From Nanobdellota archaeon (GTDB lineage Archaea > Nanobdellota > Nanobdellia > Pacearchaeales > GW2011-AR1), in the NCBI GenBank assembly GCA_022561055.1, contig JADFRY010000003.1, forward strand, positions 35,357-99,356: 64,000 nucleotides of DNA, read 5' to 3'. The notes under the pieces were generated by a model, which had not been told where the DNA came from, searched no databases, and saw nothing but the letters and a program-made list of their open reading frames with translations. Below, one piece after another: positions 22,864 to 60,821 of this stretch (positions within the stretch are counted from its first letter, which is position 1; every line of letters begins with the position of its first letter). Position numbers and translations under genes: made by a program.

Positions 22864-22896
22864 ATTTATAAAGTCTTTTTCAAGCTCTACTTCGGC

Positions 22897-23760
22897 ATGG
22901 AAATATCTGAGATTTTAACACCCTATATAAGAGAGATTGGCCTAGAAGGACCAATAGAATATGAGTTGGGAGACGGTCTAATTGGTTGTGTATTTGATCC
23001 AGAAGAAAGAAAGCATAAAGTATTTTATCATTCCAAAGTTGATCAAAGAAGTTTAGAAGAATTTGACCCAAATAGACCTTATTTGGCAAATTTTATTCAT
23101 GAATTCTGTCATTTGCGATTGGCCGAGCAGATTGATCCTTCATTCGCTGTAATTGAAGTTATTGGAGTGGATAAAGAGAAAGCACTGTTTTATACTATCG
23201 AAAATGGTCTAGTTGATATTTGGGCTAATGATTTGTTTAATACTCATTTCCCTGATTTGTTCAGAGCCCATCATAGCAATTATGCAGGTAGGGTAAGGGC
23301 ATTTATAGAAAGTAAAACTTGGGGACATCTGTTACCGCCCGCGCTTCCTTATGCCTTAGGAAAAAATACTGCTGAATCTCGCAGATATGAACTTAAAGAA
23401 GTTGATTTCAGAAGGAAATTAAGACAAGCAGGATTTACTAGTAAAACTGTTAGAAGTCAAGCAGGAAAAGACTTAGCCAGAGTTTTCGGTCCAGCTTATA
23501 TTTCTAGATATAGAATTTATACTATAGAACAATTATGGGATCATTTAAGAAGAGAAAGAGGAGAGCCTGAACCTAGAACAATGGAATACATATCACATAT
23601 TGCTCAATTTTTAAGCGATGTTCCAGAAATACCTCGGAGCAGAGCTGAAGCACAAGAATTACATGAAGAAATGATAAATGGATTTGCGAGTATAGTTCGA
23701 CTTCCATTAAATGCTAAACTTGTAGACCAAAAACCAAGACCTACTTGGTATTTAGGTTAA
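22897..23760 (+). CDS. Hypothetical protein with HExxH motif (possible ImmA/IrrE-like zinc peptidase)
   Basis: FIHEFCHLRL followed about 28 aa later by ENGLVDIWANDLF (compare HExxH...E-x2-AN-x-FA). Confidence 0.4.
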   Translation: MEISEILTPYIREIGLEGPIEYELGDGLIGCVFDPEERKHKVFYHSKVDQRSLEEFDPNRPYLANFIHEFCHLRLAEQIDPSFAVIEVIGVDKEKALFYTIENGLVDIWANDLFNTHFPDLFRAHHSNYAGRVRAFIESKTWGHLLPPALPYALGKNTAESRRYELKEVDFRRKLRQAGFTSKTVRSQAGKDLARVFGPAYISRYRIYTIEQLWDHLRRERGEPEPRTMEYISHIAQFLSDVPEIPRSRAEAQELHEEMINGFASIVRLPLNAKLVDQKPRPTWYLG

Positions 23761-25929: not shown

Positions 25930-26397
25930 TTAATTTTCAACTTTGCTTTCTAAATCATTCTGTCTATTTGATTGTCGAATTGCAGAAACATGTATATTAA
26001 CTGCTGCAGTTCCAACAATAAGTGGCAAAACTTGTGCGGCAAAAGGATTTTCTGTTCCTAAAGCGAAATGCAATGCTAAAAAACCACCATTCATGACACT
26101 AATGTTTAATGCATTAGCCCAAAACCTAAAATGTTTGGTTTTTTTTAATCGGTCAAAAAAAACAGGGTATGCAAAATTTACAAGTATTCCTGTTGGAACA
26201 GCCATATTGATAAATCCCTCTCCAAATCCATGATAAACATTATCATTATGGACACCTTCTAAGATACTTCCTCGGTATTGGTAATTTGCTGCTGCGTTTC
26301 CAATTCCAGCTAGTGTTCCATACATAGCAGTGTAAATAATATCCCACATTACATAGTCATATGCTTTCTTTAGAAAATTGGCGCCTTTCCTTAACAT
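25930..26397 (-). CDS. Hypothetical membrane protein
   Basis: 155 aa with several hydrophobic segments. No motif recognised. Confidence 0.45.
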   Translation of the reverse strand: MLRKGANFLKKAYDYVMWDIIYTAMYGTLAGIGNAAANYQYRGSILEGVHNDNVYHGFGEGFINMAVPTGILVNFAYPVFFDRLKKTKHFRFWANALNISVMNGGFLALHFALGTENPFAAQVLPLIVGTAAVNIHVSAIRQSNRQNDLESKVEN

Positions 26398-31122: not shown

Positions 31123-31779
31123 ATGGAATCTTTTATAAAGAAAATTTTTCGTGGTGAGAGCGATGAAGAAGTTCATAAATATTTTGTAAGATTTGGAAAA
31201 GGAGATTATAAGAGAAGATTCTTAATTAGTTTGAATAAGGTGGGAAAAATAAAATTGAGAGCAAGTTTTGAATTAGCTAATGACTTTGTAAATTTTGTTA
31301 AAGAGAATAAAGATGTAAAGTTTTCTGGAAAGATCTTAACAAAAGAAAAAGTTCCTGGTAAAGAAGGAAGAAAAAAGTCTGGTTATTTTGTGTATGAAAT
31401 ATCAGAAAGTTCAATAGAAAAATTTGAAGATGCTTATTTTTATTTATTAAATGTTGAGGATCCCGATATTGTTTTGAAGATAAAGAAAAAATTGCCGAGG
31501 CCTGGGAAAAAAGCTGATAAAATTGATGATAAATTTTGTTCTTTGGATTTGGATAAAAAATACTGGCCTATGGTTAAAGATGCTTTTTTCTGGGATGTTC
31601 CTGAGAATGTTAAGAAAGTTTCAATAGAGCATGAGTTAATAATTGATGATATAATTTTTCCTGAAGATGTTGATAATCCTGTTAAGATAAGAGAGCTTGC
31701 AAAGAGAAAAGGCAAAATTATCAGGATGACTATTGTTGACGGAAAAGAAAAATCTGAAGAGAAGGAGTTTGTTATTTGA
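31123..31779 (+). CDS. Hypothetical 218-aa soluble protein
   Basis: ORF with a TATA-like box 26 nt upstream (AAGTTTTATAAAGC, 31090-31103). No motif recognised. Confidence 0.45.
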   Translation: MESFIKKIFRGESDEEVHKYFVRFGKGDYKRRFLISLNKVGKIKLRASFELANDFVNFVKENKDVKFSGKILTKEKVPGKEGRKKSGYFVYEISESSIEKFEDAYFYLLNVEDPDIVLKIKKKLPRPGKKADKIDDKFCSLDLDKKYWPMVKDAFFWDVPENVKKVSIEHELIIDDIIFPEDVDNPVKIRELAKRKGKIIRMTIVDGKEKSEEKEFVI

Positions 31780-47334: not shown

Positions 47335-48192
47335 ATGTTAGAAATGTTAATAAGCCCGCAAAAAGCGGAAAGAAAGCCTTGGGAGTTATTTTTCATAGGA
47401 ATTTTTTATGCAAGCATTTCTATCTTACTAGTTAATTGGATTTTTGTGCAAGACCCTGTTCTTTCGACGCGCTCAGGGATTTTAGTGGTTACTTTTACCG
47501 TTATGTTCTCGCTCCCTTTTATGTATTACGTTATAAAATTAGAAGAAAACAAAGCAACTCAGCATATGGGGGCGTTGCGGTTACTTAGAGAACACAGAAA
47601 AGCCATATGGGCGTTTTTATGGCTTTTTATGGGATTTGTAGTAGGATTCTCATTTTGGTATATTATTCTTCCAACTACTACGAGTTTTCAAGAGCAGATT
47701 GAAACTTTTTGTGCTATCAATAGCCCAGATAACTTTGGTGGGTGCGTTCAAAAATTTGGTGTCAAAGGCACGTCTGCGCCAACGGCTTTTTTATCAAATA
47801 AAGAAAGATTATTTTTAATTTTTTCAAATAATATCTATGTTTTAATTTTCACACTTATTTTTTCTCTTATTTTTGGTGCAGGTGCTATATTTATTCTTGC
47901 GTGGAACGCTAGTGTTATTGCAGCTGCTATCAGTATATTTACCCAGTCAAACTTAAATATTCTTCCGCTCGCTTTATTCCGGTATATGATTCATGGGCTG
48001 CCAGAAATTGCAGCTTATTTCGTAGGAGCTCTGGCAGGAGGAATAATATCAATTGCAGTGATACGACACGAAATGGGCACAGACAGATTCTGGAGTGTAC
48101 TTCAAGATTCTTTAAATCTAATAATACTGTCTGTCGTGCTGCTCTTTGTGGCTTCGATTCTGGAAGTTTTTATAACTCCTATCTTTTTTTGA
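47335..48192 (+). CDS. SpoIIM-like (DUF95) membrane protein
   Basis: Polytopic. RYMIHGLPEIAAYFVGALAGG matches the family HG-x-x-E motif. Confidence 0.65.
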   Translation: MLEMLISPQKAERKPWELFFIGIFYASISILLVNWIFVQDPVLSTRSGILVVTFTVMFSLPFMYYVIKLEENKATQHMGALRLLREHRKAIWAFLWLFMGFVVGFSFWYIILPTTTSFQEQIETFCAINSPDNFGGCVQKFGVKGTSAPTAFLSNKERLFLIFSNNIYVLIFTLIFSLIFGAGAIFILAWNASVIAAAISIFTQSNLNILPLALFRYMIHGLPEIAAYFVGALAGGIISIAVIRHEMGTDRFWSVLQDSLNLIILSVVLLFVASILEVFITPIFF

Positions 48193-48236
48193 TTTTTATT
48201 GAAAGATTTATATAAGGGTTTTTGATTATTTGAATA

Positions 48237-51008
48237 ATGGATGAAGCAGATAATATAATAGAAGAAAAGAAAGGCGAAGAGCCACCTGAGGGGAAAAAAG
48301 AGAAAAATTCTATAGAGGAAAATAAACTTATCAAAGAGAGAAAAGAGAAAATTATTAACTTTGTAAAACAGAAGTATAATTGGATTAGTTATGTTGTTTT
48401 AGCGATTATTGTTTGGATAGCTATAAGAATTAGAACAAGAAATCTCTCTGGTTTACGTGATGTGACTACTGGCGGATGGACTCTTGGTCCAGATCTGGAT
48501 CCTTTCTTATTTCTAAGATGGGCTAAATACATTGTAGAAAATGGAACTCTTTTTTCTCTTGATATGATGAGAAATGTTCCGATAGGTTTTAATACTAAAG
48601 CTGAACTACTTCTCCACCCATATATGATTGCTTGGTTTCATAACATTGTTTCTTATTTTAAAGACATATCTGTAGAACAATCTGCTGCCTTATATCCTGT
48701 TTTCTTTTTTGCAATAACAGTAATAGTTTTTTTCTTTTTAGTAAGAAAGATATTTATTGATAAACTTGGGGAAAGAGATGCAAATATTATCGCCCTTGTA
48801 TCTTCTTTTTTCTTAACTGTTCTTCCGCCGCTTCTACCGAGAACAATAGCAGGCATTCCTGAAAAAGAATCTGCAGCATTTTTCTTTTTGTTTATGTCTT
48901 TCTACTTGTTTTTATCAGCCTGGAAGTCAAAACATAAATATGGTAAATATATCTTGGCAATTTTAGCTGGGACGTCAACTGCTGGAATGGCTTTTATTTG
49001 GGGAGGATTTAATTTTATCTTTGTTATTTTATCCCTCAGTACTTTTATAGCGTTTGTTCTTGGTCAGGTAAACAAAGAAAAATTTTATATATATTCTATC
49101 TGGATATTTTCAGCTTTTATTATTATGCCATTGTTTAGCTCTAGGTATACTATAACTGGTTTAGTGAGCTCTGTTACTACTGGATTTGCCTTCTTAGTAT
49201 TTTTGATTATGGCGATTCATCTTATAATATATGGCACGAAAGTTAAAAATTACTTTAAATTAAATAAACTTGAAAAAGTTCCTCCTCAAATAATCTCTCT
49301 TAGTGTGACAATCTTAATAACCATTATTTTCGCATCGGTATTTTTTGGTCCTACATTTATTTTTGACAGGGCTGATACTATCACACAAGTTTTGGTAAAG
49401 CCCACAGTAAGCAGGATTGGTGTAACTGTAGCAGAAAACAGGCAGCCTTACTTTAATGAGTGGTCTAATAGTTTTGGTCCTATTATAATAGGAATTCCTA
49501 TTTTCTTCTGGTTATTTTTTATAGGTTCAATATATCTCTTTTTTAATATGGTTAAAGTTTTAAGGAAGAAAGAGAGATGGATTTTAACTTCGGGATATTT
49601 TGTTTTTCTTGTTGCGATTATATTCAGCAGATTCAGAAGTAATCATATATTAAACGGAGAGAATTTCACCAGTCTTTCTCTATATTTCATAGGGGTAATT
49701 ATATTTTTGGGAATTATGGGATTTTATTATTATAAGTACCACATGGAAGGGCTTGGAGATAAATTTAAGAGTATAGATTTTGGCATGATATTTATTTTTG
49801 TTTTTTTCTTCTTTAGCATTGTCTCTGCAAGAGGAGCGGTAAGACTGATAATGATGCTTGTTCCATCTGCCTCTATAATTGTGAGTTATTTTGTGGTTTC
49901 TATATCTAGCAAAGCAAAAGAAATTAAAGATAAAGGTAGTAAATGGGTTGGTTGGTTTATAATTGCTATCATAATAATTTCTGTTATTTTCTCAGGTTAT
50001 CAGTTTTATAAGATAAGCAATAGTACTGCTCAAGGTTACATACCCTCGGTATATAATCAACAATGGCAAAAAGCAATGTCTTGGGTAAGAGATAACACCC
50101 CAGAAAATGCTGTTTTTGGACATTGGTGGGATTATGGGTATTGGATTCAAACAATTGGACAGAGAGCTACTATTCTTGATGGAGGAAATGCGCAATCTTA
50201 TTGGAATCATTTAATGGGAAGGTATGCCTTAACAGGACCTGATGAGATGCAAGCCTTAGAATTCTTATATGCTCATAATACAACTCATTTCTTAATTGAT
50301 TCAACGGACATAGGAAAATATACTGCATTTTCTTCTATTGGAAGTGATGAAAACTACGACAGAAGAAGTTGGATCCATATTTTCTTGAAAGATAACACTC
50401 AAACCCAAGAAACAAAAAACTCAATAACTTTCTTTTATCGCGGAGGAAGTGTTCTTGATGAAGACATATTATATGAAGAAAATGATTCAAAAATATTTTT
50501 ACCTGGGGGTGGAGCAGGAATAGGTGGAATATTAGTTGAAAGAGATAATTCAGGAAAATTATCTGGCCAGCCTTTAGGAATTTATATTTATCAACAAAAC
50601 CAATATAACTTACCACTGAGATATGCATATGATAATGGCGAATTCATAGATTTTGGATCAGGCATTGAGGCAGGTATTTTCTTAATGCAAAAAATAGATG
50701 AGAATGCGGGGCAAGTGCAAATTGATCCTAATGGTGCTTTACTTTATTTAAGCAGGAGAACTGTTAAGTCCCAATTAGCAAAGTTCTATCTTTATAGTGA
50801 AGAAAATGAATTCTTCAAGATTGCTCACATAGAGAGTGATTTCATTATAAATAATCTAAGGTCACAAGGTCTTAATGTTGAAGAATTTGCATATTTCCGA
50901 GGATTTAGAGGTCCTATAAAAATATGGGAAATAAATTATCCTGAAGATATGGAATTTAAAGAAGAGTTTATAGATACTGCATACCCTGAATCATTGCAGA
51001 TAGCTTAA
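48237..51008 (+). CDS. aglB: Oligosaccharyltransferase AglB (STT3 homolog)
   Basis: 13-TM-like N-domain plus soluble C-domain with the invariant WWDYGYWI motif (GHWWDYGYWIQT). Confidence 0.9.
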   Translation: MDEADNIIEEKKGEEPPEGKKEKNSIEENKLIKERKEKIINFVKQKYNWISYVVLAIIVWIAIRIRTRNLSGLRDVTTGGWTLGPDLDPFLFLRWAKYIVENGTLFSLDMMRNVPIGFNTKAELLLHPYMIAWFHNIVSYFKDISVEQSAALYPVFFFAITVIVFFFLVRKIFIDKLGERDANIIALVSSFFLTVLPPLLPRTIAGIPEKESAAFFFLFMSFYLFLSAWKSKHKYGKYILAILAGTSTAGMAFIWGGFNFIFVILSLSTFIAFVLGQVNKEKFYIYSIWIFSAFIIMPLFSSRYTITGLVSSVTTGFAFLVFLIMAIHLIIYGTKVKNYFKLNKLEKVPPQIISLSVTILITIIFASVFFGPTFIFDRADTITQVLVKPTVSRIGVTVAENRQPYFNEWSNSFGPIIIGIPIFFWLFFIGSIYLFFNMVKVLRKKERWILTSGYFVFLVAIIFSRFRSNHILNGENFTSLSLYFIGVIIFLGIMGFYYYKYHMEGLGDKFKSIDFGMIFIFVFFFFSIVSARGAVRLIMMLVPSASIIVSYFVVSISSKAKEIKDKGSKWVGWFIIAIIIISVIFSGYQFYKISNSTAQGYIPSVYNQQWQKAMSWVRDNTPENAVFGHWWDYGYWIQTIGQRATILDGGNAQSYWNHLMGRYALTGPDEMQALEFLYAHNTTHFLIDSTDIGKYTAFSSIGSDENYDRRSWIHIFLKDNTQTQETKNSITFFYRGGSVLDEDILYEENDSKIFLPGGGAGIGGILVERDNSGKLSGQPLGIYIYQQNQYNLPLRYAYDNGEFIDFGSGIEAGIFLMQKIDENAGQVQIDPNGALLYLSRRTVKSQLAKFYLYSEENEFFKIAHIESDFIINNLRSQGLNVEEFAYFRGFRGPIKIWEINYPEDMEFKEEFIDTAYPESLQIA

Positions 51009-51009
51009 G

Positions 51010-52017
51010 ATGGTAAATTATATTTTGATGATTCCAATTTTAGTAAGTTTTTTTGTAACTCTGTTTATGATTCCAAGCTGGATAAAAAGGGCAAGAAAAG
51101 CAAATTTATTAGGAAAGGATATTAATAAATTTAAAAAAACAGAATTGCCAGAAGCTGGAGGAGTTACTGTCGTTACAGGTTTTGTATTAGGTTCATTACT
51201 ATATATAGCATTGAATACATTTATTTTTAATACAAGCGAAAACTTTATTGAATTGTTCGCTCTTTTAAGCACAATATTATTGATAACGTTTATAGCATTT
51301 GTAGATGATATTTTAGGATGGAAAATAGGCTTAAGAAAAAGAACAAGGTTAATTCTTGTTGCCTTGGCAGCCATACCTCTGATAGTTATAAATGCTGGTG
51401 AGTCTGAAGTAGGAATTCCTCTTTTAGGAACAATTGATTTGGGTCTTATCTATCCTTTAATAATTATCCCTATAGGAATCATAGGAGCAACCACGACATT
51501 TAACTTTTTAGCAGGATTTAATGGTCTCGAAGCAGGGCAGGGAATTTTATTAATGTTTGCTGTAGGAATAGTAGCTTTCTTTATAGGCAGCCCATGGCTT
51601 ACAATTATTGCTTTATGTATGGCGGCTGCATTACTTGCTTTTTTACTTTATAATTTTTATCCTGCCAAGGTCTATCCTGGCGATTCATTAACATATGCTG
51701 TCGGCGGTTTAATAGCTATTATTGCTATTTTAGGTAATTTTGAAAAAATAGCTGTATTCTTCTTTATACCTTATATAATAGAAACTGGATTAAAACTAAG
51801 AGGAAAATTAGTAAAACAATCTTTCGGTAAACCAAAAAAAGATGGGAGTTTAGATTTGGCTTATAAAAAGATTTATAGTTTAAATCATATAGCGATTTTA
51901 TTAATGAAAAAACTAGGCTGGAAGGCAACTGAGAAGCGAGTTGTATATTTTATATGGGGCTTTCAGATTCTCATTATTATCTTAGGATTTATAATATTTA
52001 AAAATGGAATATTCTAA
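51010..52017 (+). CDS. GT4-family polyprenyl-phosphate HexNAc-1-phosphate transferase (AglH/Alg7/MraY-like)
   Basis: FVDDILG and NFLAGFNGLEAGQG motifs. Polytopic. Starts 2 nt after aglB. Confidence 0.85.
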   Translation: MVNYILMIPILVSFFVTLFMIPSWIKRARKANLLGKDINKFKKTELPEAGGVTVVTGFVLGSLLYIALNTFIFNTSENFIELFALLSTILLITFIAFVDDILGWKIGLRKRTRLILVALAAIPLIVINAGESEVGIPLLGTIDLGLIYPLIIIPIGIIGATTTFNFLAGFNGLEAGQGILLMFAVGIVAFFIGSPWLTIIALCMAAALLAFLLYNFYPAKVYPGDSLTYAVGGLIAIIAILGNFEKIAVFFFIPYIIETGLKLRGKLVKQSFGKPKKDGSLDLAYKKIYSLNHIAILLMKKLGWKATEKRVVYFIWGFQILIIILGFIIFKNGIF

Positions 52018-52028
52018 GGAGTGTTAAA

Positions 52029-53225
52029 TTGAATAAAGGTTTATTAAAAGGAAGTATAATTCTCTTAATATCTTTTAATTTATTTAATTTTCTTAATTTT
52101 ATTTTCAATATTTCCATGGCGCGCCTCCTAACTCTTGCAGAATATGGTGTCCTTACAACTTTAATCTCCTTAATTATCATTTTTGCGATTTTTAGTGAAT
52201 CTATCCAAACAGTTTTATCAAAGTATACGACAAAAGAGAAAGTCAGGGGAAAACTAAAAAATCTTGCGAAAAAAGCTTTTCGTAAGGCAGGAACTATTTC
52301 AATAATAATTTTAATTATTTATCTCATAATTGGTTTATTTATTGCACAGTTTTTGAATATTAGTTATTCTTTGATTAGTTTAACAGGGATTATGTTGTTT
52401 ATTTCCTTTTTCATACCTGTAACAAGGGGGATTCTCCAAGGCAGAAAACAATTTTCTTCTCTTGGAATAAATATGGTTTGGGAAGGACTTATTAAACTTG
52501 TACTTTCTATTGGGCTTGTAATTCTTGGAATAGGGGTACTTGGGGCTCTTCTAGGAATGATTATAGGCTCTGCCGGGGCTTTCTTAATTTCATTATTTAG
52601 CCTCAGAGATATTTTTATCACAAAAGAAAAAAAGATAAAAACTCCAGAAATATATACATATACAAAACCTGTCTTTATAACAACCTTAGCCATTGTGCTT
52701 TTTTTAAGCTTTGATATAATTCTAGCAAGAAGATTCTTTAGTCCAGACATAGTAGGAGTTTATGCTATAGGATCAACAATAGCAAAAATTATTTTTATTG
52801 GAACTCACCCAATAAGCAAAGCTATGTTTCCGATATCTAGTGAAACAAAAAAACCTAAAGATTCTCTTAAAGTATTAAAAAATTCTATTGCAATTTTAGT
52901 GGTATTAATAGCTCTAGCATTAGTTTTTATTTTCTTTTTTGCAGATTTAATTATCTGGCTCTTCGCTGGAAGATATATTCCTGAAGCTGCTAGCATACTT
53001 TTCTATTTGGCAATTGCAATGAGTCTCTTATCATTGACCAATCTAATCTTACTCTATAATCTTTCCCTTGGAATATTAAAATCATCTTGGCTTTTATTAG
53101 TTTTTATAGTAATTCAAGTTATTCTTCTCAGCGTATTTAACTCAAACTTAATTGAATTTTCATTTGCTTTAATAACTTCAGCAGCGGCTTTTCTATGGGG
53201 TGCTATATTCTTGCTAAAGAAGTAA
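52029..53225 (+). CDS. MOP-superfamily oligosaccharide flippase (Wzx/AglR-like)
   Basis: 398 aa with about 12 TM. N-terminal LNFIFNISMARLLTLAEYGVL is typical of polysaccharide biosynthesis proteins. TTG start in the ORF track. Confidence 0.7.
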   Translation: MNKGLLKGSIILLISFNLFNFLNFIFNISMARLLTLAEYGVLTTLISLIIIFAIFSESIQTVLSKYTTKEKVRGKLKNLAKKAFRKAGTISIIILIIYLIIGLFIAQFLNISYSLISLTGIMLFISFFIPVTRGILQGRKQFSSLGINMVWEGLIKLVLSIGLVILGIGVLGALLGMIIGSAGAFLISLFSLRDIFITKEKKIKTPEIYTYTKPVFITTLAIVLFLSFDIILARRFFSPDIVGVYAIGSTIAKIIFIGTHPISKAMFPISSETKKPKDSLKVLKNSIAILVVLIALALVFIFFFADLIIWLFAGRYIPEAASILFYLAIAMSLLSLTNLILLYNLSLGILKSSWLLLVFIVIQVILLSVFNSNLIEFSFALITSAAAFLWGAIFLLKK

Positions 53226-53263: not shown

Positions 53264-53950
53264 ATGAGAAAAAAGCAGAAGAATTCACGTAGATTGTTTA
53301 TTCCACTTGTAATTATAATAATCGTAGGATTAGTTATTATTTTTATATTGAATGATAATGAGATAGAGTCTACTGAAGAAAGTGCCGTTTCTATCGGAGA
53401 TTCTAACTTTATCCAGGATGAGTTCCCTAATGCGGAAGGGTTGCATTGGGGCCACATGCCAGTTACTTATTTTTTCTCAAGGGAAGCCTGTGGAGTCAAA
53501 CAAGAAAAAAGAATTATAGATGCTTTTAATATATTAGAAGAGAGAACAGAGGGAATTGTTTCTTTTAAAGAATTAGAGTCTGTTTCGGAAGTAAATATAT
53601 ACATAATCTGTATAGAAAAAAGTCAGAAAAGTATAGCAGAGGAACTTGATAGAACTGGGGGTGTTAGACGTTATGTAGCATATTACTACAACATAAGCAA
53701 TATAATAACAGAAGCAGGAATTACTTTTTTCCTCGGGCCAGGAAAAATTCCTCATAGAGATTGTAATTTATTTCCTGATGAAGAAATTCGCAATATATTA
53801 CTTGCCTCTGGTTTTGAATTAACCAATAAAACAACAAATCCTACAAATGAAACAAATCACATCTTAAGTGAGAATTTACGCCCGCGTCGTTGCCCATATG
53901 AAGTAAATGAAGATATTGTAGATAAACTAATAGATACATATAGTGAGTAA
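53264..53950 (+). CDS. N-terminally anchored hypothetical protein
   Basis: Basic N-terminus plus TM (LFIPLVIIIIVGLVIIFIL). Extracytoplasmic domain of unknown function, no HExxH. Confidence 0.4.
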   Translation: MRKKQKNSRRLFIPLVIIIIVGLVIIFILNDNEIESTEESAVSIGDSNFIQDEFPNAEGLHWGHMPVTYFFSREACGVKQEKRIIDAFNILEERTEGIVSFKELESVSEVNIYIICIEKSQKSIAEELDRTGGVRRYVAYYYNISNIITEAGITFFLGPGKIPHRDCNLFPDEEIRNILLASGFELTNKTTNPTNETNHILSENLRPRRCPYEVNEDIVDKLIDTYSE

Positions 53951-54010
53951 AGATAGAATTGTGTCCAAGTAGTCAAATAACTTTAAAAGGCCTCGCTTTT
54001 ATAAATTTTA

Positions 54011-54787
54011 ATGAAAACTATATCCATAATCATTCCAGCTCATAATGAGGAAAAAAGAATTGGGAAAACCTTAGAGTCTTATTATCATTATTTTGAAGCT
54101 CTTAAAAAAAATAAAATTTTAGATTATGAGATCTTGGTAGTAATAAATAACACTCGAGATAAAACTGAAGAAATAGTTAGGAGTGCTATTTTAAAGAATA
54201 AAAAAATTTCTTACTTAAATTTAGAGAAGGGTGGAAAGGGATATGCTATTATAGAAGGATTTAAAGATGCATTAAGAAGAGATAATGATCTAATAGGATT
54301 TGTAGATGCTGACCTCGCCACAAGTCCAGAAGCTTTTTACGATTTAGTGAAAAAAATAGATAATTACGATGGGATTATTGCTGGCCGTTATTTAAGGGGG
54401 GCGGTTATCAAACCTAAAAATACCTTTGCCAGAATAATGGCCTCACGAGTTTATAATATACTTATTCGCTCTATTTTTCTAATGCCTTATAGAGATACAC
54501 AATGCGGTGCAAAGCTATTTAGACATAAAGCACTAGAAGCCGTAATAAATAATATTGGCATGACAAAATTTGCCTTTGATGTTGAGTTAATTTATAAAAT
54601 AAGAAAGAGAGGTCTCAGAATAAAAGAAGTTCCAACAATATGGGCAGATAAAGGATATGCTACAATAAACTTCTGGCAGTCGGGTCCTTGGATGGCGCTT
54701 GCTATAATTAGGCTAAGAATTTTAAACTCTCCCTTAAGAAGATTTATAAGAATTTATGATAAATTAGTGGGGTTTGTTCCAAAATGA
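54011..54787 (+). CDS. GT2 glycosyltransferase, dolichyl-phosphate hexose synthase-like
   Basis: ISIIIPAHNEEKRIGKTL, GFVDADLATSP (DxD), QCGAKLF. Confidence 0.85.
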   Translation: MKTISIIIPAHNEEKRIGKTLESYYHYFEALKKNKILDYEILVVINNTRDKTEEIVRSAILKNKKISYLNLEKGGKGYAIIEGFKDALRRDNDLIGFVDADLATSPEAFYDLVKKIDNYDGIIAGRYLRGAVIKPKNTFARIMASRVYNILIRSIFLMPYRDTQCGAKLFRHKALEAVINNIGMTKFAFDVELIYKIRKRGLRIKEVPTIWADKGYATINFWQSGPWMALAIIRLRILNSPLRRFIRIYDKLVGFVPK

Positions 54788-55314
54788 AAAAACTAAACTT
54801 TGGTTGTGGACCTGACATTAAAAAGAGCACTAAAAATGAAAAATGGATCAATATGGATATATTAAAACTTCCCGGTATAGATGTTGTACATGATTTTAAT
54901 AAGTTTCCTTATCCTTTTAAAAATAATGAGTTTGATGTGGTCTATACCTCTCATGTTCTTGAACATATGGATGATTTAATTAAAGTAATGAAAGAACTAA
55001 AAAGGATATGTAAGCCGGGAGCTAAAATTATAATAAGAGTGCCACATTTTTCTTGTGGGGTCAGCTATAGAGATCCAACACATAAAAGATTATTTAGTTA
55101 TTTTACATTTGAATATTTTACTGAAGATTGTTTTTATGGATTACCAAAATTTAAAATTGTTAAGAGAAAGCTTAACTTTACAAGATTGGCTTTTCCTTCA
55201 TTAAATTATATTTTCAATCCCTTAATAAACATAAATCCTGCATTGTACGAAAGATTTTTTTGTTGGGTTTTGCCTTGTGCTGAATGCTTATTTGAATTAG
55301 AGGTGGTGAAATGA
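54784..55314 (+). CDS. Class I SAM-dependent methyltransferase
   Basis: KLNFGCGPD (motif I), DVVYTSHVLEHM. ATGA overlap with the upstream GT2. Confidence 0.7.
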   Translation: MKKLNFGCGPDIKKSTKNEKWINMDILKLPGIDVVHDFNKFPYPFKNNEFDVVYTSHVLEHMDDLIKVMKELKRICKPGAKIIIRVPHFSCGVSYRDPTHKRLFSYFTFEYFTEDCFYGLPKFKIVKRKLNFTRLAFPSLNYIFNPLININPALYERFFCWVLPCAECLFELEVVK

Positions 55315-56234
55315 GGGCGAAGATATCTGTTGTGGTACCCATAGATCCGAGAAGGAAAACAGGGGTTGTAAGCAGTATAAAAAAGCAAAGAGATCCTTCC
55401 TGCATACCAATACTAGAAGCTGGTCCTAACACCTCTACGAATAGAAATAGGGGAGCAAAAAAAGCTAAAACACCAATAATCGCTTTCGCGAATATGCATA
55501 CGGTATTGGCTGACAACTGGTCAACTAAAGTTATAGATTTTTTTGAAAAACACCCTGAAATAGATATTGTTGGCGGCCCTCATTTAACACCAAAAGGAGA
55601 AACTCGCTTCGGAAAAATTAGTGGGTATGTTCTAGGCTCTATGTTCGGAGCGGCAGAGTCGAGTGCTAGGTACAATGTTCGAAAGGAAATTCTAGATGCA
55701 GATGAAAAATATTTCACTGCTGCAAATTTAGCGTGTAAAAGAGAAGTCTTAGAAAAAGTTCAATTTGATGAATCCCTCTATCCCGGAGAAGACCCTAATT
55801 TTATAAAAGACGCTGTAAAAGCAGGATTCAAGGTAGCCTATTCTCCAGAACTTATAACCTACCAGCCAAGAAGAGCAAAATTAAAAGATTTTGTAAGGCA
55901 AATATTTTTTTATGCAACTGCTCGTCCTAAAAAAGAGACTTTTAAAGAAACCTTAGCAATGCCCTCCTATTTAGTACCTCCTCTATTTGTGATCTACCTT
56001 GCTTTTCTTCCAACTCTCTTCTTGTTAAATTTATTTTTCCTCGCACCCCTGATGCTTTATTTGATATTGGACATTTGGTTCTCTATCTATGAGGGAATGA
56101 AAAACAGAGATCTGCCGGCGATCTTTTTCCTTCCATTTTTATTCCCAATAATTCACATTACCTACGGATTAGGATTTATTTACGGGTTTATCGAACATAT
56201 TAGAAAAAAACCACATTATAATCCATACCAATAA
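55311..56234 (+). CDS. GT2-like glycosyltransferase with C-terminal TM segments
   Basis: KISVVVPI, NRNRGAKKAKTPIIAFANMH (DxD position reads NMH), YPGEDPNF. Confidence 0.55.
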   Translation: MRAKISVVVPIDPRRKTGVVSSIKKQRDPSCIPILEAGPNTSTNRNRGAKKAKTPIIAFANMHTVLADNWSTKVIDFFEKHPEIDIVGGPHLTPKGETRFGKISGYVLGSMFGAAESSARYNVRKEILDADEKYFTAANLACKREVLEKVQFDESLYPGEDPNFIKDAVKAGFKVAYSPELITYQPRRAKLKDFVRQIFFYATARPKKETFKETLAMPSYLVPPLFVIYLAFLPTLFLLNLFFLAPLMLYLILDIWFSIYEGMKNRDLPAIFFLPFLFPIIHITYGLGFIYGFIEHIRKKPHYNPYQ

Positions 56235-56274
56235 AATTTATAAAACCAAAGCCTTAAGTGGGTTGATAGATAAG

Positions 56275-56356
56275 ATGAGAATAGTAGTCACAGGGGGATC
56301 GGGATTCATAGGAAGCAATTTTCTTAGATTTATGATAGAGAAATATCCTGAATATG
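56275..56356 (+). repeat. Left arm of an 82-nt perfect inverted repeat (5' end of paralog A)
   Basis: Base-by-base comparison shows 56275-56356 identical to the reverse complement of 59699-59780. Identity starts at the ATG and ends abruptly after codon 27. Confidence 0.95.
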
Positions 56357-57219
56357 ATTTCATTAATTTTAGTAAAGGCCGATCAAGTAGATTAAAATAT
56401 GTTGAAAACAAGGCAAATTATAAATTAGTAGAAGGAAACTTGTGTGATAAAAAGAAACTCCAAGGACTGCTAAAAAATACTGATTGTATTTTTCATTTTG
56501 CTGCAGAGTCGCGTGTCGATAGTTCTATTAAATTCCCTGAGAGAACCATAAGATCAAATATAGAAGGAACGAATTTTTTATTAGAAGCAGCAAAAAACAA
56601 TAATGTAAAAAAGTTCATCTATTTCAGTACATCAGAGGTATATGGTGAAAAATTAGAAGGGTGTTTTAAGGAATCAGATAGACTCAATCCTAAAAATCCA
56701 TATGCAGATTCCAAGGCTGCCGCAGAAGTTTTATCGATGACATATCACCACGCTTATGGGTTGCCAGTTATTATCGTAAGGACTTGTAATGTTTTTGGTC
56801 CATATCAAAATCCAGATAGAATTATTCCTAGGTTTATAACCAACCTGTTAAAAAATGAAAAAATACCCCTTTATGGAGACGGCTCAAACTTTAGGACATA
56901 TATTTACATAGAGGATCTTTGTAATGCTTTAAACATACTTTTTAATAAAGGGGAGGTAGGAGAAGCCTATAATATAAGTACTTCTGATGAAATAACAAAC
57001 ATAGATCTAACAAGAAGAATATTAAAAAGATTGGGAAAAAGCGAAAGCTCTATTGAATTCGTTCCTGGAAGGAAATTAGATAACAGAAGATTTCTTCTTG
57101 ACACGAATAAAATCCATTCTCTAGGATGGGAACAGAAGACAAAATTCGAAGACGCACTTAATAAAACAATAGAATGGTATAAGAATAACAAAAACTGGTT
57201 ATCTAATTCTATGAACTAG
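56275..57219 (+). CDS. NAD-dependent sugar epimerase/dehydratase (RmlB-like paralog A)
   Basis: VTGGSGFIGSNF Rossmann motif, catalytic YADSK. Lacks the DKLTY-x-GN motif of true RmlB. I prefer ATG 56275 over TTG 56263. Confidence 0.8.
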   Translation: MRIVVTGGSGFIGSNFLRFMIEKYPEYDFINFSKGRSSRLKYVENKANYKLVEGNLCDKKKLQGLLKNTDCIFHFAAESRVDSSIKFPERTIRSNIEGTNFLLEAAKNNNVKKFIYFSTSEVYGEKLEGCFKESDRLNPKNPYADSKAAAEVLSMTYHHAYGLPVIIVRTCNVFGPYQNPDRIIPRFITNLLKNEKIPLYGDGSNFRTYIYIEDLCNALNILFNKGEVGEAYNISTSDEITNIDLTRRILKRLGKSESSIEFVPGRKLDNRRFLLDTNKIHSLGWEQKTKFEDALNKTIEWYKNNKNWLSNSMN

Positions 57220-57223
57220 TTTT

Positions 57224-57952
57224 TTACTTCTTCCCCCTAATTCCAGCAACTTCTTTATTTACCCTACTTAGTTCTTCTATACTTCCTGCATCTAACCACG
57301 TTTCGGATAGCTTACTCGCTTTTAGTGTGCCCCTTCTAATATACTCATTTTGAACATCTGAAATTTCTAACTCTCCTCTTGCACTTGGTTTTAGCGTGTC
57401 GATAATATCAAAGACACTTGGAGTAAACATGAGAACCCCTATAGAAACAAGGTTTGTCGGAGGAATATCTGGTTTTTCAACTATCTTTACAACTTTATCC
57501 CCTTCCATTATAGCCACTCCTGCTTTTTTCGCTTCTTCTGGAGTTGTTTCATAGAGAAGAATCCTAGCTTCTTCATTCCCCTTCTCAAATTCTTCTACAA
57601 AAGAATTAATATCTTCAAAAAGAATGTTATCTCCATTAACCGAAATAAATTTATCTTTTCCGATAAATTCTTTAGCGAGGCCAATTGCTTGTGGAATTCC
57701 TCCAGCCTCATCCTGCACCCTAAATGTAAAATTCACTCCAAAATCTTTTCCACTTCCCAATAACGCAAATATTGAACCAGCATGGTGTGTTCCAGTAACA
57801 ACCAAAATATCTTTAACCCCTGCTTTTTTTAAAATTTCAATTGGATAATAAATCATTGGCTTATCATAGATAGGCAACAAATGTTTGTTAGTAACTTTCG
57901 TAAGAGGCAACAATCTTGAACCAGTGCCGCCTGCTAAGATAACTCCTTTCAT
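57224..57952 (-). CDS. rfbA: Glucose-1-phosphate thymidylyltransferase (short form)
   Basis: MKGVILAGGTGSRLLPLTKVTNKHLLPIYDKPMIYYPIE. Confidence 0.85.
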   Translation of the reverse strand: MKGVILAGGTGSRLLPLTKVTNKHLLPIYDKPMIYYPIEILKKAGVKDILVVTGTHHAGSIFALLGSGKDFGVNFTFRVQDEAGGIPQAIGLAKEFIGKDKFISVNGDNILFEDINSFVEEFEKGNEEARILLYETTPEEAKKAGVAIMEGDKVVKIVEKPDIPPTNLVSIGVLMFTPSVFDIIDTLKPSARGELEISDVQNEYIRRGTLKASKLSETWLDAGSIEELSRVNKEVAGIRGKK

Positions 57953-58797
57953 GACAAACTACCTCCAAGTTTTTCATTTTTTACATATTCTTTTAAACAC
58001 CTTTCTACAGCATCTTCAGAACTAGGAATGTCCATAAAACTCTCAAGTTTTCTAGTCGAGAGAACACAATTTGATCTTTTGGCTTTTGTCATCTTATCTA
58101 ACTCATCTGAAGATATAGTTTCGAAATTTAAATCTTTCCCTGAAAATTCCTGATACTTCTTAAGAATCTCATCATGTGTAATTGCACCCTTGTTAACAAC
58201 ATTAAATATTCCTTTGTGTCCACCATGCATTAATTTTTTTGATATTTGTAATAAGTCCTGTACATAAGTAATCGAGTTTGGCATAACAAGGACTTTTTTA
58301 TACCCGAGAAGTTTTGTTATTAGGTTTCTTTGATTTGGTTCATCGTCGAGTGGCATTCTTATCCTCAACTGTAAAACGTTATCAAAATCACCTAGGATCT
58401 TCTCAGATATTATCTTAGAGATACTGTAAATACTTCCACTAAAGTTTGGTTCATCTGTTTCGCTAAACCCCTCCCCACCCTTTTCTCCCTCATATTCACA
58501 GCCACTCCCTATGTGTACCATTGTCTTGCCTATTTCTTTAGATGCCAAAGCGAGATAGATTGGTGCTATAACATTAGACATAAAAGTGACAGTTTTATTG
58601 TCCTCACACCAGTCGACGTTTGGAACTCCTGTTTTTCCCATACAATTTATAACAAACTCTGGATCGTGTTTGGCTATTTCCTTTCTAGCATCTTCTAATG
58701 TTTCTATTCTTGTTTTTGAAACTAAACTATCATCTAAGAAATCTCCAAATTTATTTCCTAAATACCCATCTCCAAATATCAAATATTTTACTGTCAT
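57949..58797 (-). CDS. NRS/ER-like 4-keto-6-deoxyhexose 3,5-epimerase/4-reductase (eukaryote/giant-virus-type rhamnose synthase module)
   Basis: YLIFGDGYLGNKF, GVPNVDWCEDNK, PNFSGSIYSISK, LRIRMPLDDEPNQRNLITKL, MPNSITYV resemble plant NRS/ER as I recall it. Start ATG 58797 overlaps the rfbB stop (TAATG). Confidence 0.6.
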   Translation of the reverse strand: MTVKYLIFGDGYLGNKFGDFLDDSLVSKTRIETLEDARKEIAKHDPEFVINCMGKTGVPNVDWCEDNKTVTFMSNVIAPIYLALASKEIGKTMVHIGSGCEYEGEKGGEGFSETDEPNFSGSIYSISKIISEKILGDFDNVLQLRIRMPLDDEPNQRNLITKLLGYKKVLVMPNSITYVQDLLQISKKLMHGGHKGIFNVVNKGAITHDEILKKYQEFSGKDLNFETISSDELDKMTKAKRSNCVLSTRKLESFMDIPSSEDAVERCLKEYVKNEKLGGSLS

Positions 58798-59780
58798 TAT
58801 GATGTTCTCCTGTTTGGTGTGTTTTTTAGAGGCCCCCACCAACTCTCGTTGTTTTTATACCACTCTATCGATTCTGCTAGAGCCCCTTGGAAATCAAATC
58901 TTGGTTTCCAACCAAGGTCTTCTATTTTCTTAGTATTCACAGAATATCTTAAATCATGTCCTAATCTATCTTCAACATGTTCTATGTGAGATTCATCCTT
59001 GCCCATTTGTTTTAGTATTTCTTTAGTCAATTCTATGTTCTGCAATTCATTGCTGCCACCAATATTATAGATTTCCCCAACATTTCCCTTGTGTATTATA
59101 AAATCTATCGCCTCACAATTATCTTGAACATAAATCCAGTCCCTAACATTTTTTCCCTCTCCATATAAGGGAACTTTTTTATCTTTAAGTAAATTTGTTA
59201 CAAACAAAGGAATAACTTTTTCAGGGAACTGATAAGGCCCAAAATTATTAGAAGATCTTGTAATAATAATAGGCTGATTAAATGTCTTCATGCACGCTAC
59301 ACAAAGAAGCTCTGCGGCAGCCTTTGAAGCACTGTAAGGGGAAGAGGGAACAAGAAGGTGATCTTCCGAGGAAGATTCTTGATCAAAACCCAATGACCCA
59401 TAAACTTCATCTGTTGAAATCTGGATAAATAGTTTAGCTTTTTTTTCTCTAGCCGTATCAAGTAGAGACTGTGTGCCTAAAACATTGGTCTGTATAAATA
59501 TTCCAGGATTTAGGATAGAATTATCGACATGTGACTCGGCAGCAAAATTAACTAAGACATCCCCTTCTTTTAAAATATTGCCAATAGCTTTCCTGTCACA
59601 TATGTCTTCCTGGAAGAATTGGTAGTTCTCTTTGTTTTCCAAATCAAAAAGATTTTCTTTATTTCCAGAGTAAGTTAATTTATCGATATTTACAAACCCA
59701 TATTCAGGATATTTCTCTATCATAAATCTAAGAAAATTGCTTCCTATGAATCCCGATCCCCCTGTGACTACTATTCTCAT
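58797..59780 (-). CDS. rfbB: dTDP-glucose 4,6-dehydratase (paralog B)
   Basis: VTGGSGFIGSNF, DKLTYSGNKENL, STDEVYG, catalytic YSASK. Confidence 0.85.
   Translation of the reverse strand: MRIVVTGGSGFIGSNFLRFMIEKYPEYGFVNIDKLTYSGNKENLFDLENKENYQFFQEDICDRKAIGNILKEGDVLVNFAAESHVDNSILNPGIFIQTNVLGTQSLLDTAREKKAKLFIQISTDEVYGSLGFDQESSSEDHLLVPSSPYSASKAAAELLCVACMKTFNQPIIITRSSNNFGPYQFPEKVIPLFVTNLLKDKKVPLYGEGKNVRDWIYVQDNCEAIDFIIHKGNVGEIYNIGGSNELQNIELTKEILKQMGKDESHIEHVEDRLGHDLRYSVNTKKIEDLGWKPRFDFQGALAESIEWYKNNESWWGPLKNTPNRRTS
59699..59780 (-). repeat. Right arm of the 82-nt perfect inverted repeat (5' end of rfbB)
   Basis: See left arm 56275-56356. Confidence 0.95.
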
Positions 59781-59867
59781 TGAAATACTCTTTTTGATTA
59801 GTTAATAAGCCTTACTATGCTATGATTTATATATACATATAACCAGCTCAATAATTAGAGAAAGCAA

Positions 59868-60821
59868 ATGAGACCAGAAATATCTATCATTGTTTGTACC
59901 TATAATGCACCAGATCTTGTTGCTAGATGCCTAAATTCTATCTTAAACCAGACCTACAAAAACATTGAGATATTGTGTGTTGATGGTATGAGTATTGATA
60001 AAACAAGGGATGTTGTTAAGAAGTATATGAAGAGAGATAAACGTGTCAAGTTGATTCTTAATAAAAACAGGCTTCCTGAAGGTAAGGGAAATGGAAAATG
60101 GCTTGGTTTTAAAAGAGCTAAGGGAAAGATTATAGGTGTTGTTGATCAGGATAACTTATTACAAAGAGAGGATTTAATAGAAAAAGTCTTAGAGATTTTT
60201 AAAAAAAATAAGGACTTAATAGGTATTTTAGGAGGATTAAAACACGACCTTTCTGATGAAAGAATTGTAAGATATGTTTCTCTTGTTGGAACAGATTCTT
60301 TTTTTGCTTACAGATCTGTGGACTTTATTAGGAACATAAGAAAACTAAAGTCTCATTCAAATATAGAAATCTTTCCTATGCAGGTAGATAATATGACAAT
60401 GACTGGAGGCAACTGCTTTTTCTACAAAAAATCAGACTTAGAAAAGATAGAGGGTTATGAGAAAGACATAGTAACTGTAAGAAAATTGATTAAGTCGGGA
60501 AAGTCCAAGCTTATGATAATTCCTAATGCAACAAAACACTATGCAGAAAATAACCTTTTGACACTAACAAAGAAGAAATTCTTTTGGGGAAAAAAATTCC
60601 AGTTTAATAATGAAGGAGAATTCTCTTACCTTCCATCGACGGCAAAAGAACGTGTAGCTTTTATAAAAAATATTCTCTTTAACTTAACGATAATTCCGAA
60701 TTTCTATTACTCCTCAAAACTGTTCTCAGAATCTAAAGACTTTATTTCCTTTACATTTCCTATTTTTGCGTTTCTAAATACATTAGCTTATGGTGTTAAT
60801 TTTCTAAAAACGAAGTTTTAA
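59868..60821 (+). CDS. GT2 glycosyltransferase
   Basis: ISIIVCTYNAPDLVARCLNSILNQTY, VVDQDN (DxD-like). Confidence 0.8.
   Translation: MRPEISIIVCTYNAPDLVARCLNSILNQTYKNIEILCVDGMSIDKTRDVVKKYMKRDKRVKLILNKNRLPEGKGNGKWLGFKRAKGKIIGVVDQDNLLQREDLIEKVLEIFKKNKDLIGILGGLKHDLSDERIVRYVSLVGTDSFFAYRSVDFIRNIRKLKSHSNIEIFPMQVDNMTMTGGNCFFYKKSDLEKIEGYEKDIVTVRKLIKSGKSKLMIIPNATKHYAENNLLTLTKKKFFWGKKFQFNNEGEFSYLPSTAKERVAFIKNILFNLTIIPNFYYSSKLFSESKDFISFTFPIFAFLNTLAYGVNFLKTKF

What the first reader, a model, noticed from the sequence alone, without database searches (positions are those of the whole stretch)
56275..59780. Perfect 82-nt inverted repeat made of the 5' ends of two diverged dehydratase paralogs brackets the rhamnose genes: possible invertible promoter-swap segment
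I compared the two gene starts base by base. 56275-56356 (plus) is identical to the reverse complement of 59699-59780, covering the ATG plus 27 codons (MRIVVTGGSGFIGSNFLRFMIEKYPEY). Identity begins at the ATG and stops abruptly. The remaining ~290 aa of the two proteins are clearly diverged: paralog B has DKLTYSGN and YSASK, paralog A lacks the former. Upstream sequences also differ. A sharp block of 100% nucleotide identity in otherwise old paralogs implies recent gene conversion or an actively maintained recombination substrate. Homologous or site-specific recombination between the arms would invert 56357-59698. Both ORFs would stay intact, but the downstream parts would swap promoters. The rfbB-NRS/ER-rfbA operon would join the end of the GT2-MTase-GT2 operon (54011-56234). 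Paralog A would fall under the divergent promoter shared with GT2 59868. That would act as a switch for surface-glycan composition. I know of no described precedent in DPANN archaea.
Basis: partly seen in the sequence, partly recalled or inferred. Interest (0 to 1): 0.72.

Follow-up and report, generated by a model that had tools for sequence, protein, structure and literature searches.

The report
Paralog-mediated inversion of rhamnose gene cassette
Two diverged sugar-dehydratase genes in a tiny (DPANN) archaeon share a perfectly identical first 82 bases in opposite orientation, and related genomes show that the 3.3-kb rhamnose gene block between them has flipped, most likely by ordinary homologous recombination there; there is no evidence that it is a dedicated genetic switch.

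Summary
Bases 56275-56356 equal the reverse complement of 59699-59780: 82 of 82, starting exactly at both ATGs. The rest of the two genes is about 50-59% identical in DNA.

Gene B (58797-59780, minus strand) is a bona fide dTDP-glucose 4,6-dehydratase (RmlB). Gene A (56275-57219, plus strand) belongs to a separate, rarer RmlB-like clade.

Three related lineages, one of them collinear with the window on both flanks, have the opposite orientation: GT2c -> rfbB -> (rfbD) -> rfbA <- A <-> GT2d. A fourth lineage, which lacks the rhamnose genes, also has A divergent from GT2d. The promoter-like boxes next to GT2c and GT2d stay with the position, not with the gene. That places both breakpoints in short intervals (about 110 nt on each side) that contain the repeat.

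The best reading is RadA-type homologous recombination between the conserved 5' ends of inverted paralogs: a crossover (the inversion) plus a gene-conversion tract (the 82-nt identity). This is the tufA/tufB kind of event.

No recombinase was found in the window, and relatives lack the identical block. No data show both orientations in one population, and both genes keep a promoter either way. A regulated glycan switch is therefore not supported, though occasional re-inversion remains possible. It is a new member of a known kind and of moderate interest.

The parts
56275..56356 (+). Left arm of the perfect 82-nt inverted repeat: ATG plus 27 codons of the A-type SDR gene. The peptide looks B-type (KYPEY).
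59699..59780 (-). Right arm of the perfect 82-nt inverted repeat: ATG plus 27 codons of rfbB.
56357..59698 (.). Segment between the arms (A body, rfbA, NRS/ER-like gene, rfbB body). It is inverted relative to the arrangement in related lineages.
56275..57219 (+). Gene A: RmlB-like extended SDR of a distinct clade. It lacks the DKLTYxGN loop, has TSE instead of TDE, and scores 332 bits on TIGR01181 against a cutoff of 365.
57224..57952 (-). rfbA-like glucose-1-phosphate nucleotidyltransferase.
57949..58797 (-). NRS/ER-like bifunctional 3,5-epimerase/4-reductase (rhamnose synthase type). An alternative TTG start lies at 58842.
58797..59780 (-). Gene B: dTDP-glucose 4,6-dehydratase RmlB (TIGR01181 435 bits, above the 365 cutoff; TDE and YSASK present).
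56234..56245 (+). TATA-like box AAATTTATAAAA just after the GT2c stop. It is conserved at this position in L092 (where rfbB follows) and in L095 (where an rfbD-like gene follows), so it stays outside the inverted segment.
59802..59809 (-). CTTATTAA box 22-29 nt upstream of the SDR ATG on the GT2d side. It is conserved in L092 and L096, where the A-type gene follows, so it stays outside the inverted segment.
54011..56234 (+). GT2a-methyltransferase-GT2c operon: fixed left flank, collinear in relatives.
59868..60821 (+). GT2d: fixed right flank, divergent from whichever SDR gene lies next to it.

Best explanation
The repeat is the footprint, and the remaining substrate, of ectopic homologous recombination between the conserved 5' ends of two inverted paralogous SDR genes. 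In the ancestor the order was GT2a-MT-GT2c -> rfbB-(rfbD)-rfbA <- A <-> GT2d. Strand exchange was probably seeded in the Rossmann-motif-coding stretch (TGGSGFIGSN), where paralogs can already share a 26-nt exact run. It was resolved as a crossover, which inverted everything between the two 5' ends. The accompanying heteroduplex or gap repair converted one arm to the other, giving 82 identical bases. The tract is bounded on one side by the ATG, upstream of which there is no homology. On the other side it is bounded by codon 27/28, where A-type and B-type genes differ by an indel and homology collapses. As a result, the A body now sits behind the TATA-like box downstream of GT2c, and the rfbB-NRS/ER-rfbA operon sits behind the divergent promoter region shared with GT2d. 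Shown: the perfect repeat, the inversion relative to relatives with conserved flanks, the positional conservation of the promoter-like boxes, and the absence of a recombinase in the window. Inferred: RadA-dependent homologous recombination, conversion from B to A, and the single-event scenario. The 82-bp identity could allow rare re-inversion, but nothing indicates a regulated switch.
For: The repeat is perfect over 82 nt, with 25 of 25 synonymous codon matches against 45% in the gene bodies, P = 2e-9. L092 is collinear with the window for 12 flanking genes on both sides (STT3, GT4, Wzx, GT2a, GT2c and, on the other side, GT2d, orf554, GT9, NDT). Only the rfbB-rfbD-rfbA...A block has the opposite orientation. 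L091 and L003/L090 also have GT2c -> rfbB -> rfbA <- A. L096 has A divergent from GT2d and no rhamnose genes. The box CCAAyAAAryTTATAAA follows GT2c whatever gene comes next, and the box CTTATTAA precedes the SDR gene on the GT2d side whether that gene is A or B. Both breakpoints therefore lie between these boxes and codon 28, in intervals that contain the arms. The gene bodies are clearly orthologous to the A and B clades. The shared N-terminus leans B-type: 18-20 of 27 matches to the B orthologs of close relatives against 13-18 of 27 to A orthologs, and a KYPxY signature. This fits the copy next to GT2c having kept the resident rfbB 5' end. L092, which has the ancestral orientation, has a 26-nt exact run and 13 of 16 shared codons between its A and B 5' ends (P = 0.015), so a recombination seed exists. 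Precedent: tufA/tufB recombination in Salmonella yields gene conversion, and inversions in up to 50% of events (Hughes 2000 as cited in PMC6735719).
Against: No reads were available, so the orientation rests on assemblies: two records that agree and may come from the same data. The relatives are distant (GT2c 61-65%, RmlB 72-74% identity), so the time and number of events cannot be resolved. Polarity rests on three or four lineages plus the chimeric N-terminus. Typing the arm as B-type rests on a few diagnostic residues, with only five A-type comparators. A reciprocal crossover alone would give two different hybrid 5' ends, so a conversion step must be added. It cannot be decided whether conversion preceded the crossover or accompanied it.
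Confidence: 0.7

Rival explanations
1. Active, reversible inversion switch (phase variation). The arms are kept identical because the segment flips back and forth in the population. Each flip changes which nucleotide-sugar genes are driven by the GT-operon promoter and read-through and which by the GT2d divergent promoter, and so varies the surface glycan.
For: The perfect 82-nt inverted repeat is a competent homologous-recombination substrate. The locus sits in an N-glycosylation island containing STT3/AglB, a flippase and glycosyltransferases, the kind of locus where bacteria use invertons. The opposite orientation exists in relatives. L092 shows a weak sign of 5' codon sharing. Archaeal invertons are barely explored.
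Against: No integrase, resolvase or invertase was found among the 30 ORFs scanned outside the island, and none of the island genes is one. Relatives L091, L003 and L008 show no identical 5' block, so the substrate is not maintained across the clade. Every assembly of the L003-type lineage (six loci or more) and of the L092-type lineage (three) shows one orientation. The contigs of this genome run straight through both arms in one orientation. The promoter-like boxes lie outside the segment and both positions have one, so no ON/OFF outcome is predicted.
Confidence: 0.12
2. Gene conversion only. The 82-nt identity arose by a non-crossover conversion unrelated to the inversion. The cassette orientation differs from relatives for another reason, such as independent cassette insertion or replacement in this variable slot.
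For: The slot between GT2c and GT2d is highly variable among relatives: empty in L100, A only in L096, radical-SAM genes in L098, and an rfbD-like gene directly after GT2c in L095. In other lineages the rfbB operon sits in different genomic contexts.
Against: Both inversion breakpoints map to short intervals (about 110 nt each) that contain the two arms. A coincidence of an independent rearrangement with exactly these end points is less parsimonious than one recombination event. The gene content of the segment is otherwise the same as in L092, apart from two extra ORFs there.
Confidence: 0.1
3. Assembly artefact. The orientation of the middle segment, or the identity block itself, results from mis-traversal of a repeat or from a chimeric join in a metagenome assembly.
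For: The source is a metagenome-assembled genome. An inverted repeat makes the orientation of the enclosed segment ambiguous for any k-mer shorter than the repeat. No read data could be examined.
Against: The ENA contig is a MEGAHIT k141 contig, and 141-mers span an 82-nt repeat with unique sequence on both sides. A second record (an NCBI MAG contig of 105.9 kb) has the same proteins, and the window matches the ENA contig at every base over 17.7 kb. An artefact would not give gene A a B-type N-terminus joined in frame at a homology boundary. G+C content is even across the region.
Confidence: 0.05

Closest known systems
tufA/tufB recombination in Salmonella enterica (gene conversion linked to chromosomal inversion; Abdulkarim & Hughes 1996 and Hughes 2000, as cited in PMC6735719)
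   Same: Two homologous genes lie in inverted orientation on one chromosome. General homologous recombination between them homogenises sequence (conversion) and, when resolved as a crossover, inverts the DNA between them. Both genes stay intact while promoters and downstream contexts are exchanged.
   Different: The tuf genes are nearly identical over their whole length and encode the same protein, and the inverted interval is hundreds of kilobases. Here the paralogs are old and functionally distinct (about 47% amino-acid identity), the identity is confined to 82 nt at the 5' end, the interval is 3.3 kb, and the host is a DPANN archaeon (RadA rather than RecA). Dependence on the recombinase was not tested here.
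Type I restriction-modification hsdS 'epigenetic invertons' and shufflon-type coding-sequence inversions
   Same: The inverted repeats lie inside coding sequences, and inversion re-joins a fixed 5' gene end to a different 3' body.
   Different: Those systems have one expressed locus plus silent partial cassettes and usually an adjacent tyrosine or serine recombinase. Here both genes are complete and each has its own start codon and TATA-like box. The protein products are unchanged by inversion, and no recombinase was found.
Invertible promoters (fimS, Bacteroides polysaccharide-locus invertons)
   Same: The locus encodes surface-glycan biosynthesis, and inversion changes which promoter drives which genes.
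   Different: In invertons a short segment containing the promoter flips between short inverted repeats through a dedicated invertase. Here the promoter-like boxes are outside the segment, the genes flip, and the arms are 82-nt gene 5' ends.

Membership tests
Inversion plus gene conversion by homologous recombination between inverted paralogs (tufA/tufB type) | Two homologous genes in inverted orientation on the same replicon | tested here: met
   A 56275-57219 (+) and B 58797-59780 (-). Both are extended SDRs of the RmlB family.
Inversion plus gene conversion by homologous recombination between inverted paralogs (tufA/tufB type) | A tract whose identity far exceeds that of the rest of the genes, including synonymous sites (conversion tract) | tested here: met
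   82 of 82 nt are identical. 25 of 25 codons match at identical residues, against 45% in the bodies, P = 2e-9.
Inversion plus gene conversion by homologous recombination between inverted paralogs (tufA/tufB type) | The intervening DNA is inverted relative to the ancestral order, with breakpoints inside the homologous stretch | tested here: met
   L092, L091 and L003/L090 have the opposite orientation with conserved flanks. Promoter-like boxes stay with the position, which confines the breakpoints to intervals containing the arms.
Inversion plus gene conversion by homologous recombination between inverted paralogs (tufA/tufB type) | Dependence on the general recombinase (RecA/RadA) | not testable with these tools
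   This needs genetics or biochemistry, and the organism is uncultured.
Site-specific inverton (Hin/Gin/FimB/Tsr type) | A dedicated serine or tyrosine recombinase encoded nearby | tested here: not met
   There was no Pfam integrase, resolvase or transposase hit (E <= 1e-5) in the 30 ORFs scanned across 0.5-34 kb and at 53.3 kb, and none among the island genes. The 34-47 kb stretch, whose ORFs were not scanned individually, looks like the ribosomal-protein/SecY cluster: L3 and L4 begin it and SecY ends it. The ORFs at 64-474 and 47335-53225 and small ORFs under about 120-150 aa were not scanned either.
Site-specific inverton (Hin/Gin/FimB/Tsr type) | Both orientations coexist in one population | not testable with these tools
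   No reads were available. The exact-protein look-ups returned one contig, in one orientation.
Site-specific inverton (Hin/Gin/FimB/Tsr type) | The promoter, or the switched element, lies inside the invertible segment | tested here: not met
   The TATA-like boxes at 56234-56245 and 59802-59809 lie outside the arms.
Coding-sequence cassette switching (hsdS invertons, shufflons) | One expressed 5' end plus silent alternative 3' cassettes, so that inversion changes the protein made | tested here: not met
   Both genes are full-length with their own ATG. Because the arms are identical, inversion leaves both protein sequences unchanged.
dTDP-glucose 4,6-dehydratase RmlB (NCBIfam TIGR01181 equivalog) | Score above the curated cutoff (365.1 bits) and the catalytic TDE / YxxxK motifs | tested here: met
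   This row is for gene B: 435.2 bits, with STDEVYG and YSASK present.
dTDP-glucose 4,6-dehydratase RmlB (NCBIfam TIGR01181 equivalog) | Same criteria applied to gene A | tested here: not met
   331.8 bits, below the cutoff. It has STSEVYG instead of STDEVYG, and the DKLTYxGN loop is missing. It groups with P0018, P0002, L092A, L091A and L096A.

The most novel reading that the evidence does not exclude
The 82-nt arms are a working, recombinase-independent flip-flop. RadA-mediated inversion recurs in the population and toggles the rhamnose operon and the A-type SDR between the promoter/read-through of the N-glycosylation GT operon and the GT2d divergent promoter. That would give heterogeneous surface glycans. 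It would be the first inverton-like system in DPANN archaea, and one built from gene 5' ends rather than dedicated sites.
Probability: 0.1. Interest if true: 0.7.

Novelty: new member of a known kind. Interest (0 to 1): 0.4.

Why it matters
This is a clean, base-resolved natural example of a short conversion tract in the conserved 5' end of otherwise old paralogs driving an operon-scale rearrangement in an uncultured DPANN archaeon. The event occurred inside the N-glycosylation island that decorates the cell surface. It exchanged promoters between a rhamnose-synthesis operon and a second nucleotide-sugar gene without altering either protein beyond the first 27 residues of one of them. It also marks a concrete place to look for population-level inversion in archaea, where invertons are almost unexplored. 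In addition, it warns annotators that the N-terminus of gene A is not orthologous to the rest of the gene. If the segment does not flip today, this is ordinary genome microevolution of a known type.

Tried and rejected
1. The GTDB genome scan with an A-type alignment returned 80 loci, all at 47% identity or less. They were generic RmlB-like genes from unrelated phyla, and neither the window's genome nor close relatives were among them, so it said nothing about orientation.

2. The JGI metagenome scan with a GT2c alignment gave one locus (L090), from the L003-type lineage.

3. Exact-protein look-ups for A and B found only one contig, identical to the window. No alternative-junction contig could be found.

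4. Look-ups of further RmlB orthologs (P0134 and P0127) landed in a different genomic context without an A-type paralog.

5. The closest GT2c relative (L095, 72%) is a 1.7-kb contig in which an rfbD-like gene follows GT2c. It informs only about the conserved box.

6. An RNA-structure explanation for the conserved arm was rejected: minimum free energy -11.2 kcal/mol, z = +0.69 against shuffles.

7. The recombinase search in the window was negative.

8. The sigma-70 promoter and terminator scanner was not used, because the organism is an archaeon.

9. Typing the arm as A-type or B-type by simple identity is only suggestive. The A-type sample of five sequences is too small for a formal test.
Full report
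**Observation.** I read both gene starts and compared them by script. Bases 56275-56356 on the plus strand equal the reverse complement of 59699-59780, 82 of 82. The identity begins exactly at the two ATGs; the upstream sequences are unrelated. It ends after codon 27 (MRIVVTGGSGFIGSNFLRFMIEKYPEY).
- The repeat finder reports the pair as 102 nt at 91%, so similarity drops at once after base 82.
- It is the only long repeat in the whole 64-kb window.
- Beyond codon 27, successive 27-codon windows show 33-63% amino-acid identity and 49-68% nucleotide identity.
- At residues that are the same in both proteins, 25 of 25 codons are identical in the head, against 59 of 131 (45%) in the bodies; binomial P = 2e-9.
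- The block is therefore real and cannot be explained by protein conservation of the Rossmann motif.
- The arm has no unusual RNA structure (z = +0.69).

**The genes.**
- Gene B (58797-59780, minus strand) passes the NCBIfam RmlB equivalog (435 bits against a cutoff of 365) and has the TDE and YSASK motifs.
- Gene A (56275-57219, plus strand) scores 332 bits, below the cutoff. It lacks the DKLTYxGN loop and has TSE in place of TDE.
- Among 230 collected homologs, only P0018 and P0002 share these A-type features. Further A-type genes turned up in loci L092, L091 and L096.
- Without the first 27 residues, A is 52-55% identical to most A-type proteins (43% to L091A) and 41-47% to B-type proteins. 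B is 72-74% identical to its orthologs in the close relatives L092, L091 and L003, and 49% to the more distant L008 gene.
- A's nearest solved structures are RmlB enzymes.
- Between the two genes lie an rfbA-like nucleotidyltransferase and an NRS/ER-like 3,5-epimerase/4-reductase.
- A source names the organism a Nanoarchaeota (DPANN) MAG.
- The locus lies in an N-glycosylation island (STT3/AglB, GT4, flippase, GT2s, GT9) next to the ribosomal-protein/SecY cluster.

**Related loci.** A-type genes are repeatedly found convergent to rfbA-rfbB. A search with the flanking glycosyltransferase GT2c and context look-ups gave the key comparison.
- L092 (JGI Ga0246236_1000144) is collinear with the window on both sides. 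It reads STT3, GT4, Wzx, GT2a, MT, GT2c, then rfbB(+), rfbD(+), rfbA(+), two extra ORFs and A-type(-), then GT2d(+), orf554(-), GT9(-), NDT.
- The window has the same flanks, but between them it reads A(+), rfbA(-), rfbD(-), rfbB(-). The block between the two paralog 5' ends is therefore inverted.
- L091 and L003/L090 also read GT2c -> rfbB -> rfbA <- A.
- L096 has only the A-type gene, again divergent from GT2d.
- The window is thus the only one of these five lineages with its orientation.
- Several independent assemblies of the L003-type and L092-type lineages all show that ancestral orientation.

**Breakpoints.**
- Immediately after the GT2c stop codon, a TATA-like box (CCAAyAAAryTTATAAA; window 56234-56245) is conserved in three lineages. 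A follows it in the window, rfbB in L092, and an rfbD-like gene in L095.
- On the other side, a CTTATTAA box 22-29 nt upstream of the SDR start (window 59802-59809) is conserved in three lineages. rfbB follows it in the window; the A-type gene follows it in L092 and L096.
- These elements belong to the position, while the gene bodies from codon 28 onward belong to the swapped genes. Both breakpoints therefore fall in intervals of about 110 nt that contain the two arms.
- The shared 27-residue peptide leans B-type. It matches 20, 20 and 18 of 27 residues in the RmlB orthologs of the close relatives, and 16 in the more distant L008 gene, against 13-18 in A-type proteins. It carries the KYPxY signature where four of five A-types have HPD.
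- This fits the copy next to GT2c having kept the resident rfbB 5' end, now joined to the A body.

**Mechanism.** The simplest account is homologous recombination between the 5' ends of the inverted paralogs. It was resolved as a crossover (the inversion) with an associated conversion tract (the identity).
- The tract limits coincide with the limits of homology. There is none upstream of the ATG, and after codon 27 there is an indel (the DKLTY loop) with low similarity.
- A seed for such an exchange exists in a relative that still has the ancestral order. In L092 the two 5' ends share a 26-nt exact run and 13 of 16 codons at identical residues (P = 0.015 against that genome's own gene bodies). 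L091, L003 and L008 are at background.
- The known parallel is tufA/tufB in Salmonella, where recombination between the inverted genes gives conversion, and inversion in up to 50% of events.
- RadA dependence, the B-to-A direction and the single-event scenario are inferences.

**Is it a switch?** I found nothing that requires one.
- No integrase, resolvase or transposase domain occurs in the 30 ORFs scanned across the rest of the window, and none of the ten island genes scanned is one.
- The identical block is absent from relatives, so it is not a maintained feature of the clade.
- The only other record of this genome that could be read, the ENA contig, has the same orientation as the window and runs uninterrupted through the arms.
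- Both positions carry a TATA-like box, so all genes are probably expressed in either orientation.
- An 82-bp perfect inverted repeat 3.3 kb apart can nevertheless recombine again, and archaeal inversions are little studied. I put low-frequency flipping with phenotypic consequences at about 10%.

**Artefact.** The ENA contig is a MEGAHIT k141 contig, so 141-mers span the 82-nt arm with unique flanks. The window matches it at every base over 17.7 kb, and composition is even. A mis-join would not produce an in-frame B-type head on an A-type body at a homology boundary. Without reads I cannot exclude an artefact entirely, and I put it at about 5%.

**Verdict.** The case is a new member of a known kind (paralog-mediated inversion with gene conversion) in an unusual host and locus, and of moderate interest.

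Noticed in passing
window 53987-54013 and 56229-56255: A 27-nt, 85% complementary inverted repeat (AAGGCCTCGCTTTTATAAATTTTAATG / CAATAAAATTTATAAAACCAAAGCCTT) brackets the GT2a-MT-GT2c operon. Both copies contain a TATA-like TTTATAAA core flanked by AAGGC. One sits just upstream of the GT2a ATG and the other just after the GT2c stop. They may be promoter elements rather than a recombination substrate.
   Followed up: partly
between GT2c and GT2d: window 56235-59867; L092 10916-16542; L096 10919-11935; L100 about 10888; L098 10907-14962: The slot between the two conserved glycosyltransferases is a hypervariable cassette site among related DPANN genomes. It is empty in L100. It holds an A-type SDR only in L096, the rhamnose genes plus A plus two extra ORFs in L092, and radical-SAM/SPASM, methyltransferase and another SDR in L098. 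An rfbD-like gene directly follows GT2c in L095.
   Followed up: partly
window 56275-57219; L003 8001-8942; L008 892-1830; L092 15549-16457; L091 4024-4986; L096 10922-11851: The A-type SDR forms a small, distinct RmlB-derived clade. It has no DKLTYxGN loop, TSE/SSE/TSA in place of the catalytic TDE, and RTCNVFGP and IEFVP motifs. It is usually convergent to rfbA. It scores below the RmlB equivalog cutoff, and its substrate and reaction are unknown.
   Followed up: partly
L092 10974-11055 versus 16376-16457: In this relative, which has the ancestral orientation, the two paralog 5' ends share a 26-nt exact run (ATAACAGGTGGATCTGGTTTTATAGG). 13 of 16 codons are identical at shared residues, against 52% in the bodies (P = 0.015). 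This may be an older or shorter conversion tract.
   Followed up: partly
window 57224-59780: The rhamnose pathway here has three genes: an RmlA-like transferase, RmlB, and a bifunctional NRS/ER-type 3,5-epimerase/4-reductase. The best PDB matches for the last are 4qqr and 7jid. No separate RmlC cupin gene was seen in the region examined.
   Followed up: partly
window 54784-55314 versus L092 9064-10008 and L096 9063-10004: The methyltransferase of the GT2a-MT-GT2c operon is 176 aa in the window (171 aa in L003 and L091) but 313-314 aa in L092 and L096. Only part of the L096 protein aligns, which suggests a domain gain or loss.
   Followed up: no
window 53264-53950: A 228-aa ORF with no Pfam match lies between the flippase and GT2a. 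The tblastn comparison found no counterpart in L092, L096 or L100.
   Followed up: no
window 471-2423, 6183-8602, 9264-9803, 16384-17028, 22414-23760, 25930-26397, 31123-31779: Twelve ORFs of 149-314 aa have no Pfam hit at E <= 1e-5. Nearby are an 838-aa S-layer-like protein (3411-5927) and a 682-aa CARDB/DUF4352 protein (10094-12142).
   Followed up: no
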